A DNA stretch of 64,000 nt from the NCBI RefSeq assembly GCF_009914755.1, contig NC_060925.1; one strand, given 5' to 3'. Below the pieces are notes generated by a model. That model had not been told where the DNA came from. It saw only the letters and a list, made by a program, of their open reading frames with translations, and searched no databases. The stretch comes from the human T2T-CHM13v2.0 reference genome, Homo sapiens. Both the position numbers and the translations under genes were made by a program. The first letter of the stretch is position 1. Each line of letters starts with the position of its first letter. Shown here one piece after another: positions 6,660 through 48,672 of this stretch.

Positions 6660-9224
<2,565 letters not shown>

Positions 9225-44689: not shown

Positions 44690-44900
44690 CCTAGTACTTA
44701 AGAGCAATCTGTGGGATTAGGCAGATCTGTGTTTGATTTGAGGCTTTACCACAAACTGTCTACATTATCTTGGGCAATGAGACTTTATTTCTTCAAACCT
44801 ATTTCATGTTATTATGGTGAGAATTCAATGAGACAGTGTTGGCAAAAGTTTTAGAAGAGTACCTAGACAGGAAAGTCTCAATAATATGTCAAGTGCTTTA
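44690..44900 (+). mobile_element. MIR SINE
   Basis: aggcagatctgtgtttg...tcttgggcaatgagacttt...ggtgagaattcaatgagacagtg. Confidence 0.6.
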
Positions 44901-45910
44901 TGATGACACGTATGACTATAGAAGGGATGGGGAAACTAGGTACTAGCAGTCTTAGGAGCCCAGCTCTGTACACCCAGCTCATATCACCCTCCTCCACTCT
45001 CTCTTGTCCCACCTCCCTTTCCTTTCTTGGCATGTGGTGATGCAACTGTGTCTCCCCCTTGTGCTTTTTGAAAAAAAAATATTTGCAGCCAGCTCCAAGT
45101 TTTAGTTGGCAACAAATCCGATAGTAAACCAGATAACATGCTTCTCTCCAAAGTAAATATAAACTGTATCAATAGAAATGTAGTTTTTGGAACTCTGGAA
45201 ATTCTTCTCTGGCACCCTTGTGGACCATGTTTGAACACTTAGCCTAGTTTCAGATGCTGCCTCTAAGGACATTAACAAACAAGAATGAATCCTAGGAAGG
45301 GTGTGTGTATTACTTAATGGTATGAAAACCATATCATAGAAGAAAAAAGTTCAAAGACATAGAGATAATAGTGTGGAAAGGAGTAGACCCAGGGTATATG
45401 AGAGCTAAATTTAATACAGATAGGGCTTTAATGTCGAGTGCAGTGTTCCTTGGGAACTTCAAGGCTGGAATCCCTCAGCCATTGCTTATATGTTTTGAGC
45501 ACTGTAATTCGATAGGTGGATAGCACCTGATCTTCAGGCAGGCAATCTTACCCATTTCAGGCTCACTAGCTGTGTCAGAGAAGGTTGTGGAAATGTGATT
45601 GCTCATGGATATGTCCTTGGAAGAGGGACTGGAAGACCTTTGGTTTAATGAATTCATCTGCACATTTATAATGGTGAGCATATCCAAATGTTTTCTTGGT
45701 CAGAAAAATTTAAGTATTAATAATACCTTCCTTTTGTGAGGAATTGTCAGGTCATGCTTCATTTTGCTCAATAATTATTTTATCTCCTTTCTAATAGTGC
45801 TGATTAAGCACTATTTCATTTATTTAAGAAAAGCTTACTGAACGGAGATACTTGGACAAAAGAGAACAAAGCCCATGCTCGTTGAAAACCTAAGTCCTAT
45901 GAGCAATGCC

Positions 45911-46870
45911 TTTATTTAAATTGTACTAATATTACACATAACAATATTTACCATTTTAACCACTTTGAAATTTACAGCTCATGGCTTTTAGTACATAAAC
46001 ACTATTTTGCAACCATCACAACCATCTAGTTTCAGAATATTTTGATCATGACCAAAAGAAATTCTGTACCCATTGAACCAGTTGCTCCTCATTTCCCCCT
46101 CCCCCAGTCCTTGGCTGCACTAATCTGCTTTCTATTTCTCTCTATATGAATTTGCTTAAGTTGATTGTTCATATGAATGAAATCATATAATATGTGGCCT
46201 TTGTGTTTGTCTTCTTCCACTCAGCATAATGTTTTCAAGGTTCATCTATGGTGTAGTATATGTCAGTACTTCATTCCTTTTTATGGCTGAATAATATTTA
46301 ATGTTATGGATTCACCATCTTTTGTGTATCTGTTTGTCTGTTGATGGACATTCGAGTTGTTTTCAGCTTTTGGCTATCGTGAATAGTTGTGATGTAGAGC
46401 AGGTGAGCCCCCAAATTGGGTCTTAGCGCAGGAGGGTTTTTGGCTCTGCCCAGGAAAGAATTCAAGGGTGAGTTGGTGATGTTAGACAGCAATTTTTACT
46501 GAAGTGGCAGTGCACAGCAGCAGCAGAAGTGTTGTTTCTTGTAGAGGAGGGCTACTCCACAGGCACTGTGCCCAGAGTAGCCCTGCTCTTCAAGGAGTGG
46601 TACCTCTGCTACTGCTATACACTGCCACTTCAATAAAAATTGCTGTCTAACACCACCAGCTCACCTTTGAATTATTTCCTGGGCAAAGCCAAAAATTATC
46701 CCATGCTAAGCCCCAATTTTGGGGTTCACCTGCCCTACATCAGCTGGGCTATGAACATTTTTGTACAAATTTTTGTTTGAACAGCTGTTTAAAATGCATT
46801 GGGTGTATGCCAGAGAGTATCATTATTGCTGGGTCATATGGTAATTCTTTGTTAAACTTATTAAGGAAGT
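45911..46870 (-). mobile_element. L1MB-type LINE 3' region interrupted by the palindromic LTR insertion
   Basis: tttaccattttaaccact...gcaaccatcacaaccatctagtttcagaatattttgatcat...tcagcataatgttttcaaggttcatc. It resumes after 46742 with gctatgaacatttttgtacaa. Confidence 0.88.
46390..46742. mobile_element. Palindromic element made of two inverted MER66-type (ERV1) LTR 3' ends
   Basis: Two 168-bp arms (46390-46557 and 46575-46742) are reverse complements at 140/168 positions with no gaps. TG...CA ends, AATAAA in the right arm, flanks gttg/gctg. The palindrome is read directly; the MER66 assignment is from memory of the consensus. Confidence 0.85.
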
Positions 46871-47347
46871 ATCTATTTTTCTAAGTGAGATTTCCAGGTT
46901 TTATAGTTACTGGTTTACATGCAGTTTGTGGAATTAGAAAAGGTTCTCAGGGCCTTTATTCCCTCTTTTTGAGAGATTTAGCAATATTCTGTTTGACATG
47001 AGAATTTCTAAAAATCCATTTATAATACTGACCAAAATTATAATCCTGTGAATAAATTTTTAGGAAAGATCTTATCTATGAGGGACTTTCTATATGCCCT
47101 ACATATCATTCCCATTTCACAAGGAGTTGTGCAATTGGAGCCCTGGCCTTGCTGCCTCAAGTTGGTCTCTGGCACCATGCAACGGGAAGAAGACCTCTGG
47201 GCTTTGTGAGCTGAACTTTGGCTCATGCTCATGTTCACCAAGCAGAAATGTTCTTTCCAATTTTTAGGTTTTTCAGGAGAAACTGAATATCTAAATTTTT
47301 ATATGATGATCTTCTATGTTTTTAATGCCGGCAACTCATTCACATTT

Positions 47348-47387
47348 AAACAAAACAAAACAAAACAAAACAAAACAAAACAAAACA
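47348..47387. repeat. (CAAAA)n pentanucleotide repeat
   Basis: About 7-8 units read directly. Confidence 0.95.
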
Positions 47388-47454
47388 CCATGGGCCAAGC
47401 AAAACAAGTCTGGGAGCTGAATTTGATGTGCAGGCCATTGATTTACTACTGCTT

Positions 47455-48672
47455 TCTTTTTCTTTCTTTCTTTTTTTTTTCTTCTAACTTTTGTTATAGG
47501 TTCAGATGGTACATGTGCAAGTTTGTTATCTGGGTATACTGCGTGACACTGAGGTTTGGAGTATGAATGAATCCATCTCCCAAGTAGGAAACATAGTACC
47601 CAGTAGGTAGTTTTTCAGCCCTTGCCCACCTGCTCTTCTTATATTTCCCAGTGTCTGTTGTTCTCACCTTTATGTCCATGTGTACTTGATGTTTAGCTCC
47701 CACTTGTAAGTGAGAACATGTAGTATTTGGGTTTCCATTTCTGCATTAGTTTGCTTAGAAAAATGGCCTCCAGCTGCATCTACGTTGCTTCAAAGCACAT
47801 GATTTCATTCTTTTTGATGGCTGCATAATTTTCCATCGTTATATGTAGCACATTTTCTTTATATAATCCAGAGTTGATGGGCACCTGGGTTGATTCAGTG
47901 TCTTTGTGAATAATGCAGTGATGAACATATGAGTGCACCTGCCTTTTTGGTAGAACAGTTTATTTTCCTTTGGGTATATACTCAGTTAAGGAATTTCTGG
48001 ATTTAATGGTAGTTCAACTTTTAGTTATTTGGGAAATCTCCAAACGGATCTACACAGTGGCTGGGTACATCCCCACCATCTGTGTATGAGTTCCCCTTTC
48101 TCTGCAGCCGTGCCAGCATCTGTTGCTTTTAGACTTTTTAACAAAGACCATTCTGAGCAGTGTGAAATGGTATCTCATTGTGGTTTTGATTTGCACATCT
48201 CTGATGATTAGTGATGATGAGCATTTCTTCATATGTTTGTTGGATACTTGTATTTCTTCCTTGAGAAGTGTCCTTTCATGTTCTTTGCCTACTTTTTAAT
48301 GGGGTTACTTGTTTTTCGCATGTTAATTTGTTTAAATTTTTTTTATAGATTCTGGATGTTTGGCCCTTGTCAGTTGCATAGTTTGCAGATACTTTCCCTT
48401 ATTCTGTAAGTTGTCTGTTGACTCCCTTGTTAGTTTCTCTTGGTGGCAGAAACTCTTTAGTTTAATTAGGTCTTACTTGTTAATTTTTGTTTTTGCTGGA
48501 TTTGATTTTGAGGACTTAGCGTAAATTCTTTGCCAAGGCCAACATCGAGAAGGGTATTTCCTAGGTTTTCTTTTAGGATCTTTGTAGTTTGAGATCTAAC
48601 ATTTAAGTCTTTAATCCATCTTGAGTTAATATTTATATATGATGATTGGTGGCGTTCAGTTTCATTCTTCTA
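47455..48672 (-). mobile_element. L1PA13-16-like LINE, 5'-truncated
   Basis: T-rich tail, 3'UTR gtacatgtgcaagtttgttatctgggtatactgcgtgacactgaggtttgg, and ORF2 remnant [22 protein letters not shown]. Confidence 0.92.

What the first reader, a model, noticed from the sequence alone, without database searches (positions are those of the whole stretch)
46390..46742. LTR-derived 353-bp palindrome that looks integrated as a single unit (an 'LTR-MITE')
Seen: two 168-bp arms are ungapped reverse complements (28 mismatches, ~83%, mostly transitions) around a 17-nt loop. The ends are TG...CA, the host L1MB is cleanly split, and the flanks gttg/gctg resemble a 4-bp TSD with one mismatch. Known: the arms resemble the poly(A)-signal/U5 end of MER66-type ERV1 LTRs, and ERV1 integrases make 4-bp TSDs. 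A normal solo LTR is not palindromic. Inference: a fold-back or template switch at the short inverted repeat GCTACTC...GAGTAGC produced a cDNA with two U5 attachment ends, which integrase accepted. If transcribed from either strand it would form a ~168-bp hairpin (ADAR, Drosha/Dicer or dsRNA-sensor substrate), and it carries outward-facing poly(A) signals (AATAAA on +, AGTAAA on -). I cannot tell whether this form is already catalogued.
Basis: partly seen in the sequence, partly recalled or inferred. Interest (0 to 1): 0.8.

Follow-up and report, generated by a model that had tools for sequence, protein, structure and literature searches.

The report
Fossil of folded-back retroviral DNA
An ancient retrovirus left in a PDE4B intron a 353-base mirror-image copy of the first short DNA piece it makes when copying itself, apparently recording a copying accident otherwise known mainly from test-tube work.

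Summary
Window 46390-46557 and 46575-46742 are ungapped inverted arms of 168 nt (28 mismatches) around 17 nt.

Each arm is the terminal R-U5 part (192 nt with the central hairpin) of a 472-534 bp ERV1-type LTR. A printed RepeatMasker table calls a homologous piece MER66B.

The symmetry axis lies in a 7-bp-stem hairpin. Its first base is 32 nt after the first T of a TATA-like motif in 23 of 29 ordinary copies, which is the predicted cap site. No U3 is present, and both outer ends are exact LTR termini.

The host L1 carries a 4-nt surplus at the site, GTTG/GCTG, and the family makes 4-bp duplications. The arms are as diverged (K2P 0.195) as unrelated copies are (median 0.219).

Two more loci share the architecture, with a deletion in one arm; one has a perfect 4-bp duplication. 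Three pattern scans found no others.

Best reading: minus-strand strong-stop DNA that primed on itself and was integrated through two U5 ends, roughly 40-65 My ago. It is a recurrent by-product, not an amplifying "MITE" family.

The parts
46200..46389 (+). Left piece of the host L1-type repeat that the element splits
   Evidence: Own-genome search: 40 scored of 2507 candidates, relatives 77-81% identical. It is colinear with the right piece in uninterrupted relatives. The subfamily was not verified.
46386..46389 (.). Left copy of the putative 4-bp target-site duplication (GTTG)
   Evidence: 3 of 4 bases identical to 46743-46746. The site has a 4-nt surplus relative to 20 of 29 intact L1 relatives.
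46390..46581 (-). R-U5 unit colinear with ordinary LTR copies. [quoted passage not shown] I infer it was the template arm together with the hairpin.
   Evidence: Other copies match query positions 1-192 in one piece, loop included. The loop orientation equals that of ordinary copies. As DNA its 3'-terminal 7 nt are paired in both the MFE and the centroid structure.
46551..46581 (.). Central hairpin: stem 46551-46557 (GCTACTC), loop 46558-46574, stem 46575-46581 (GAGTAGC). It is the symmetry axis and corresponds to the predicted first bases of R.
   Evidence: In ordinary copies the first stem base lies 32 nt after the first T of a TATA-like motif in 23 of 29, and the stem keeps at least 6 of 7 pairs in 22 of 29.
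46582..46742 (+). Second arm, R-U5 in LTR sense on the plus strand. I infer it is the self-primed extension.
   Evidence: Matches of other copies to this arm start only at query 173-190, so the loop is flipped relative to this arm. It ends at the exact LTR terminus ...CTACATCA.
46632..46637 (+). AATAAA poly(A) signal of the right arm, in the sense of PDE4B
   Evidence: Read. Its function was not tested.
46495..46500 (-). AGTAAA, the decayed mirror copy of the poly(A) signal in the left arm
   Evidence: Read.
46743..46746 (.). Right copy of the putative 4-bp target-site duplication (GCTG)
46743..46932 (+). Right piece of the host L1-type repeat
   Evidence: In intact relatives it aligns directly after the left piece.

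Best explanation
The element is a fossil of an aberrant reverse-transcription product of a MER66-group, gammaretrovirus-like (ERV1) endogenous retrovirus. Minus-strand strong-stop DNA is the first DNA made, running from the tRNA primer through U5 and R to the capped 5' end of the RNA. Here it was about 192 nt. I infer that it failed to jump to the 3' R. Instead its 3' end folded into the small hairpin that sits at the very start of R, or paired with a second such DNA from the co-packaged genome, and reverse transcriptase extended it along itself. The product is an R-U5 / R-U5 palindrome with no U3 whose two outer ends are both genuine U5 termini. I infer that integrase treated these as its two ends and inserted the unit into an old L1 in what is now a PDE4B intron, making a 4-bp duplication. 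This happened while the family was active, roughly 40-65 My ago. The same accident is recorded at two other loci. The element has no promoter, primer-binding site or polypurine tract, so it could not copy itself. Today it is most likely neutral intronic DNA that would form a ~168-bp imperfect RNA hairpin within PDE4B pre-mRNA. Shown: the anatomy, the homology, the position of the axis, the age relative to the family, and the duplications. Inferred: self-priming, conversion to a two-ended duplex, and use by integrase.
For: 1) The arms are the terminal 192 nt of an LTR of 472-534 bp. Other copies continue for about 290 more bp beyond the hairpin and the palindrome does not.
2) Homology to U3 is lost exactly at the first stem base. 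That base lies 32 nt after the first T of a TATA-like motif in 23 of 29 ordinary copies (26-31 nt in 5, no motif in 1; example L072). This is the spacing expected of a cap site.
3) Independently, the BRCA1-intron piece that print calls MER66B starts at that same base, runs 50 nt and is followed by an A-run.
4) Both outer ends are exact LTR termini (TG...CA). The flanks are colinear L1, not inverted copies of each other, with a 4-nt surplus and GTTG/GCTG. Ordinary copies of the family show 4-bp duplications: of 10 evaluable, 3 match 4/4, 4 match 3/4, 2 match 2/4 and 1 matches 1/4, and 8 of 18 were dropped because their ends were not recognised.
5) The arms differ by K2P 0.195. The 465 pairs among 31 other copies have a median of 0.219 (IQR 0.194-0.249), and each arm is only the 5th or 6th nearest relative of the other among 32. 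So the palindrome is as old as the family's insertions.
6) Two further loci have two inverted U5 ends around the same hairpin. L002 is 224 bp with flanks ACTG/ACTG, and L015 is 270 bp. They are not close relatives of the window's arms, ranking 12 of 32.
7) Folded as DNA, 46390-46581 pairs its last 7 nt, leaving a primer-template junction.
8) Self-priming of (-) strong-stop DNA at the hairpin complementary to the 5' end of R is an established in-vitro reaction of HIV-1 (review PMC6088434, passages; PMC4668388, passages).
Against: L015 has no recognisable duplication (CGAA/GTTG, 0 of 4), and its flank could not be reconstructed from relatives.
The hairpin is weak (-8.5 kcal/mol, z -1.7, 9 of 200 shuffles as good), and only 3 of 6 present-day copies fold with a paired 3' end.
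The cap site is predicted, not measured.
The review says self-primed products are dead ends and were not detected in endogenous reactions of HIV-1 particles.
How a hairpin becomes a two-ended duplex is undocumented, and no primer-binding-site remnant is seen.
The inferred pre-insertion 6-mer differs from that of most L1 relatives at three adjacent positions.
No orthologous loci could be examined.
Searches score only 40 candidates each (1205 candidates). The three pattern scans need both ends nearly intact and miss L002, so three loci is a lower bound.
Confidence: 0.7

Rival explanations
1. A mobile, non-autonomous palindromic family ('LTR-MITE'): one palindromic progenitor was copied and re-inserted repeatedly by the retrovirus's machinery.
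For: Three loci share the junction and the two U5 ends. Two of the three have 4-bp duplications matching in at least 3 of 4 bases.
Against: Only three loci were found. One search scored 40 of 1205 candidates. One search returned 40 pattern loci, 2 of them LTR-like; one search returned 17, 2 of them LTR-like; one search returned 2 of 2. Their lengths differ (353, 224, 270 bp). They are not each other's nearest relatives (rank 12 of 32). There is no U3 promoter, primer-binding site or polypurine tract with which to be transcribed and reverse-transcribed.
Confidence: 0.07
2. Post-insertion rearrangement: an ordinary solo LTR was converted into a palindrome later, by fold-back repair or template switching of the host replication machinery at the short inverted repeat.
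For: Short inverted repeats do nucleate palindrome formation in host DNA (general knowledge, recalled). The axis lies in such a repeat.
Against: The new arm would have to replace U3 exactly and stop exactly at the LTR terminus without copying flanking L1, yet the flanks are colinear and not inverted. This would have had to happen at three loci. The arms are as diverged as independent copies, so any such event fell at about the time of insertion.
Confidence: 0.1
3. Two separate, 5'-truncated R-U5 fragments or LTRs happened to insert head to head, or an LTR inserted into another LTR and deletions followed.
For: Nested and adjacent LTR copies exist. For example, L002 has a second, more diverged copy about 630 bp away.
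Against: Both truncations would have to fall at the same base on either side of a 17-nt loop. The loop is present once, and the whole is ungapped over 168 nt. The same coincidence would have to occur at three loci. The host L1 shows one insertion with one 4-nt surplus.
Confidence: 0.03
4. A palindromic DNA-transposon MITE that is unrelated to retroviruses.
For: The element consists entirely of terminal inverted repeats and is short.
Against: The arms are homologous over 192 nt to one end of an asymmetric 472-534 bp element. That element has TG...CA ends, a TATA-like motif, AATAAA and 4-bp duplications. A homologous piece is annotated MER66B, LTR/ERV1, in print.
Confidence: 0.01

Closest known systems
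Self-primed (snap-back) minus-strand strong-stop DNA of HIV-1, as described in vitro (Guo et al. 1997, seen only as a reference entry; review PMC6088434, passages)
   Same: It contains only R-U5 sequence, duplicated in inverted order. The turn lies in the hairpin formed by the 3' end of strong-stop DNA, which is the complement of the 5' end of R. The outer end lies at the primer/U5 border.
   Different: The published products are single-stranded hairpin molecules made in test tubes. They are called dead ends and were not detected in endogenous reactions. Here the product is a chromosomal, double-stranded insertion with two processed ends and a target duplication. It comes from a gamma-like ERV whose hairpin is much smaller than TAR.
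Ordinary solo LTRs of the MER66 group (ERV1; Repbase review PMC5753468, passages; Vargiu et al. PMC4724089, passages)
   Same: The R-U5 sequence, the TG...CA terminus, the 4-bp duplication and the age.
   Different: A solo LTR is U3-R-U5 (472-534 bp here) and arises by recombination between the two LTRs of a provirus. This element has no U3 and two U5 ends.
Palindromic MITEs of DNA transposons in the human genome (recalled, for example MADE1-type elements; not tested here)
   Same: A short, fully palindromic interspersed element that can fold into a long RNA hairpin.
   Different: Those are amplified to many copies by a transposase and carry that transposase's own duplication. This one has three copies, LTR-derived arms and the retroviral 4-bp duplication.
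Inverted Alu pairs in introns as sources of double-stranded RNA (recalled)
   Same: An intronic inverted repeat predicted to form a long duplex in pre-mRNA.
   Different: It is a single insertion rather than two independent ones. No editing or small-RNA data were examined.

Membership tests
ERV1-type LTR, MER66 group | Homology to sequence that RepeatMasker names MER66 | tested here: met
   PMC11839443 Table 1 lists MER66B (LTR/ERV1) at 8856-8906 of the BRCA1 exon 8 to intron 11 reference sequence. The T2T equivalent is L074 4970-5018. All 10 LTR copies and the window palindrome hit it (E 5e-9 to 0.015), and six Alus lie at the offsets the table predicts. The subfamily (A-D) of the window's arms was not determined, and no Dfam or RepeatMasker was available.
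ERV1-type LTR, MER66 group | TG...CA termini and a 4-bp target-site duplication | tested here: met
   Ordinary copies: of 10 evaluable, 7 match in at least 3 of 4 bases; 8 of 18 were dropped because their ends were not recognised. Window 3 of 4, L002 4 of 4, L015 0 of 4. That 4 bp is typical of gamma-like integrases is recalled knowledge.
ERV1-type LTR, MER66 group | Complete U3-R-U5 architecture | tested here: not met
   Ordinary copies have a TATA-like motif, the hairpin, AATAAA and U5. The window element lacks U3 altogether and carries R-U5 twice. It is derived from the family but is not an LTR.
ERV1-type LTR, MER66 group | Association with a gamma-type internal region (primer-binding site, pol) | not tested
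   No provirus was found among the loci seen. The one same-strand pair examined (C7, 4.7 kb apart) has no primer-binding-site-like sequence after its U5. Class assignment rests on print.
Self-primed minus-strand strong-stop DNA product | Only R-U5, inverted, with the turn at the hairpin at the 5' end of R | tested here: met
   The position of the R start is predicted from TATA spacing (23 of 29 at 32 nt) and from the BRCA1 fragment that starts at the same base. It was not measured.
Self-primed minus-strand strong-stop DNA product | 3' end of the strong-stop DNA able to pair back on itself | tested here: inconclusive
   The window's 192 nt fold with the last 7 nt paired. The hairpin is weak (z -1.7), and only 3 of 6 decayed copies fold this way.
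Self-primed minus-strand strong-stop DNA product | Made by reverse transcriptase from the viral RNA | not testable with these tools
   Inference only.
MITE (amplified non-autonomous element) | Many copies of similar length descending from one progenitor | tested here: not met
   Three loci of 353, 224 and 270 bp. The pattern scans found no more. The copies are not each other's nearest relatives.
Known structured RNA or miRNA family | Rfam match at the gathering score | tested here: not met
   There are three matches to plant miRNA models, 24.9-37.2 bits against gathering scores of 62-90. RefSeq lists no RNA gene at this place.

The most novel reading that the evidence does not exclude
Integrated snap-back strong-stop DNAs may be a general, uncatalogued class of retroviral insertion. 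They would be R-U5 palindromes with two U5 ends that occur at low frequency for many ERV families and hosts. If so, they would show that self-priming happens in vivo and that integrase can take two U5 ends in a natural infection. They would mark ancient cap sites to the nucleotide and supply ready-made long hairpins from which host hairpin-RNA genes could arise.
Probability: 0.35. Interest if true: 0.75.

Novelty: new variant of a known kind. Interest (0 to 1): 0.62.

Why it matters
Self-priming of strong-stop DNA is a textbook in-vitro side reaction. It is thought to be suppressed in virions and to lead nowhere. These three loci would be natural, germ-line records that it occurred and that its product could still be integrated through two U5 ends. 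The axis of such a palindrome also pins down the RNA 5' end of a virus extinct for tens of millions of years. Repeat annotation would report such an element as two opposed LTR fragments, so further cases may sit unnoticed. For PDE4B the practical point is modest: the intron carries a 353-nt near-perfect hairpin and a sense-strand AATAAA, neither with any demonstrated effect.

Tried and rejected
Naming from a provirus. I looked for same-strand LTR pairs among the hits. The only pair (C7, 4.7 kb apart) was fetched at its LTRs only. No primer-binding-site-like sequence follows U5, so no internal region was pursued and no viral gene was fetched or translated.

Naming from print. Passages mentioning MER66 in PMC5753468, PMC4724089, PMC2567338, PMC4021974, PMC10602909 and PMC9604959 give the classification only. 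Only PMC11839443 gave a locus that could be compared.

Duplication at L015. Its left flank has only 4 weak relatives and none reaches the junction, so that question stays open.

Covariation in the hairpin. I did not attempt it, because differences among dead copies are post-insertion decay and say nothing about structure. I give pair counts only.

RefSeq soft-masking. The file marks neither the palindrome nor its L1 flanks, with one masked stretch within 1.5 kb. It is not informative.

Rfam. Only sub-threshold matches.

Prior descriptions. I searched for genomic fossils of self-primed strong-stop DNA or palindromic R-U5 insertions and recognised none in the listings. That library lacks most subscription journals. 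I recall, unverified, a 1985 J Virol paper by Olsen and Swanstrom on defective retroviral DNA with inverted duplications; its title phrase found nothing.

Supplements were closed. Vargiu's Table S5-2 (LTR divergences) and the supplementary figures of PMC10602909 (ZNF682 on MER66 LTRs) may bear on age and on host binding.

I considered and rejected a one-ended integration of the hairpin followed by host ligation, because it predicts no target duplication.

Full report
OBSERVATION. The window holds an ungapped inverted repeat with arms 46390-46557 and 46575-46742, each 168 nt, 83% complementary, with 17 nt between them. I count 28 mismatches, 22 of them transitions. The ends are TGATGTAG...CTACATCA and the flanking tetranucleotides are GTTG and GCTG. 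AATAAA lies at 46632-46637 on the plus strand, and its decayed mirror AGTAAA at 46495-46500 on the minus strand. As RNA the 353 nt fold at -247.4 kcal/mol against -109.2 +/- 5.7 for 100 shuffles (z -24.4).

WHAT THE ARMS ARE. A search of the same genome with the 353 nt scored 40 of 1205 first-look candidates and gave 81 matches. Apart from the window itself, copies match query 1-192 on one strand, which is the left arm, the loop and the far 7-nt stem. On the other strand they match from about 173-190 to 353. In the fetched loci the homology among copies runs on for about 290 more bases beyond the hairpin. Ten copies with recognisable ends are 472-534 bp long. They start TGA[A/G]GTAG and end ...CATCA. 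They have a TATA-like motif, the hairpin and AATAAA (for example L072). So the arm is the last 192 nt of an ordinary, asymmetric LTR, and the palindrome contains none of the other roughly 290 nt.

NAME. No Dfam or RepeatMasker tool was available, so I sought a printed anchor. A case report gives a RepeatMasker 4.0.9 table of the reference BRCA1 sequence from exon 8 to intron 11. It lists one LTR, 'MER66B LTR/ERV1', at 8856-8906 between two L1MB3 pieces (PMC11839443, passages and Table 1). I fetched the corresponding T2T stretch. All 10 LTR copies used as queries and the window palindrome hit one place there, L074 4970-5018 (E from 5e-9 to 0.015). Six Alus lie at the offsets the table predicts. 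The family is therefore MER66-group by LTR and print. I could not assign the subfamily of the window's arms. Print places MER66A-D in ERV1, with MER66_I linked to MER66C and related to the MER4 group (PMC5753468, passages). It places MER66 in the HERVFRD-like supergroup with LTR divergence of 13-36% (PMC4724089, passages). It also calls MER66 a primate ERV subfamily clustering with gamma-like class I ERVs (PMC9604959, passages).

WHERE THE AXIS LIES. In 29 ordinary copies the first base of the 5' stem (GCTACTC in the window) lies 32 nt after the first T of a TATA-like hexamer in 23 copies, 26-31 nt after it in 5, and no motif was found in 1. That is the spacing of a cap site. I infer that R starts at the first stem base, or within a base or two of it. 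The stem keeps at least 6 of 7 pairs (G-T allowed) in 22 of 29 copies. An independent hint comes from BRCA1. The MER66B piece there begins at exactly that base, runs 50 nt and is followed by an A-run inside an L1, like an L1-mediated retrocopy of an RNA that began there (interpretation inferred). The palindrome therefore turns at the predicted 5' end of the viral RNA, and each half is a whole R-U5.

WHICH ARM IS WHICH. The 17-nt loop is not itself fully palindromic, so its orientation is informative. Read in LTR sense on the minus strand, the left arm is preceded by the loop in the orientation seen in ordinary copies. The right arm is preceded by the flipped loop. [quoted passage not shown] Folded as DNA, 46390-46581 pairs its last 7 nt with GCTACTC in both the MFE and the centroid structure, giving a primer-template junction. 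The hairpin alone is weak (-8.5 kcal/mol, z -1.7), and only 3 of 6 decayed copies fold this way.

INSERTION AS A UNIT. The flanks are two colinear pieces of one old L1-type repeat. Between two anchor motifs, 20 of 29 uninterrupted relatives have 6 nt; 2 were mis-anchored one repeat upstream and 7 were not anchored. The window has 4 nt before the element and 6 nt after it, a surplus of 4. The surplus tetranucleotides agree in 3 of 4 bases. By my arithmetic, 3 or more of 4 arises by chance about 5% of the time. Ordinary copies of the family show the same 4-bp duplication. Of 18 loci, 10 had recognisable ends, and these match 4/4 in 3, 3/4 in 4, 2/4 in 2 and 1/4 in 1. The flanks are not inverted copies of each other, and both arms stop at the exact LTR terminus. 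A fold-back by host replication should have copied on into the flank.

AGE. The arms differ by K2P 0.195 over 168 sites. Only one mismatch sits at a surviving CpG, and without it K2P is 0.187. The 465 pairs among 31 other copies have a median of 0.219 (IQR 0.194-0.249), and 26% of those pairs are closer than the two arms. Each arm is only the 5th or 6th nearest relative of the other among 32. The two arms have therefore been diverging for about as long as independent insertions of the family, so the palindrome dates from the family's active period, and there is no sign of arm-to-arm conversion. At a recalled neutral rate of 2.2e-9 per site per year, 0.098 per arm gives about 44 My. Slower primate rates give more. 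One sister copy (L003) sits inside an Alu, with a decayed 4-bp duplication. Three others (L010, L011, L017) are interrupted by Alu-like insertions. This places the family within the primate Alu era (recalled knowledge). I give 40-65 My and stress that no orthologous site was seen.

OTHER LOCI. Two more loci have two inverted U5 ends around the same hairpin. L002 (C15:67844320-67844543, 224 bp) has a full arm colinear with the normal loop. Its second arm keeps only its innermost 12 nt and outermost 20 nt. Its flanks are ACTG/ACTG. L015 (C3:161690426-161690695, 270 bp) has a full extension-side arm, and its template-side arm is reduced to its outer ~80 nt. Its flanks are CGAA/GTTG, 0 of 4. In L015 the shortened arm is the one that must have served as template, so that loss came after the extension was made. 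Neither locus is close to the window's arms (rank 12 of 32), and their flanks differ, so these are independent insertions.

A junction query found the full junction only in the window (40 of 65 candidates scored). Three scans looked for two inverted U5 motifs within 400 bp:
- (two mismatches or fewer): 40 loci, of which only the window and L015 are LTR-like.
- (three or fewer): 17 loci, the same two.
- (three or fewer): 2 loci, the same two.
L002 escapes all three scans, so three is a lower bound. Matches in closed regions are not shown.

MECHANISM. Self-priming of (-) strong-stop DNA is established for HIV-1 in vitro. After RNase H removes the template, the 3' end forms the hairpin complementary to the start of R and reverse transcriptase extends it. 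The products are called dead ends, are suppressed by nucleocapsid protein, and were not detected in endogenous reactions (PMC6088434, passages; PMC4668388, passages; Guo et al. 1997 seen only as a reference entry). The anatomy here is what that reaction predicts: R-U5 only, inverted, the turn at the start of R, and the outer end at the primer border.

What is new, and inferred, is the sequel: conversion to a two-ended duplex and concerted integration through two U5 ends. Two routes are conceivable:
- Fresh priming on the end of the unfolded strand.
- Pairing of two strong-stop DNAs from the two co-packaged genomes through their complementary stems, each extended on the other. This route yields a linear duplex with two genuine U5 ends directly.
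The sequence cannot tell these apart. A one-ended joining of the hairpin followed by host ligation predicts no duplication and fits less well.

RIVALS. Four alternatives were weighed.
- An amplifying 'LTR-MITE' family is disfavoured. There are few copies, their lengths differ, there is no shared clade, and there is no promoter, primer-binding or polypurine sequence.
- A later host rearrangement is disfavoured by the exact termini, the colinear flanks, the age of the arms and three-fold recurrence.
- Two chance head-to-head fragments would need identical truncation points at three loci.
- A DNA-transposon MITE is excluded by the homology to an LTR.

PRESENT-DAY ROLE. Nothing shows one. RefSeq lists no gene or RNA here other than the PDE4B intron. 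Rfam gives only three sub-threshold matches to plant miRNA models. A long hairpin in PDE4B pre-mRNA and a sense-strand AATAAA are predictions only.

NOVELTY. In the searched library I recognised no description of such genomic fossils. Subscription journals and supplements were not covered. I rate it a new variant of a known kind: an aberrant insertion form of a known ERV family that matches a known in-vitro side product.

Noticed in passing
L074 4968-5018 (G000:C17:43946967-43947017, BRCA1 intron), minus strand: The 50-nt piece that print calls MER66B starts exactly at the first base of the LTR hairpin. It is followed by TT plus an A-run and sits inside an L1 with similar ~10-nt flanks. It looks like an L1-type retrocopy of a short RNA that began at the LTR's cap site.
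   Followed up: partly
L003 1440-2040 (G000:C22:46099943-46100426): An ordinary LTR copy of the family lies inside an Alu, with a decayed 4-bp duplication. Copies in L010, L011 and L017 are themselves split by Alu-like insertions. The family's activity therefore overlapped the Alu era.
   Followed up: partly
L002 2341-2778 (G000:C15, about 630 bp from the 224-bp palindromic copy): A second, more diverged LTR of the same group (66-77% identity to other copies) lies close to the fold-back copy. I did not examine whether the two are connected.
   Followed up: no
G000:C7:102689481-102733909: Three LTR copies lie within 45 kb, two of them on the same strand 4.7 kb apart. The upstream one (L072) is 534 bp and has no primer-binding-site-like sequence after U5. 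This is possibly a segmental duplication rather than a provirus.
   Followed up: partly
window 46448-46682: Rfam 'evalue' mode matches three plant miRNA precursor models (MIR1144, MIR9672, MIR528) at 25-37 bits, far below their gathering scores. This is an effect of any long hairpin, not homology.
   Followed up: yes
window 44890-48242: The RefSeq soft-masking file marks only 47643-47784 within 1.5 kb of the element. Neither the palindrome nor the L1 pieces around it are masked.
   Followed up: no
window 46014-46025 / 46383-46394: A 12-nt inverted repeat (92%) has one arm spanning the left junction of the element. It is short enough to be chance.
   Followed up: no
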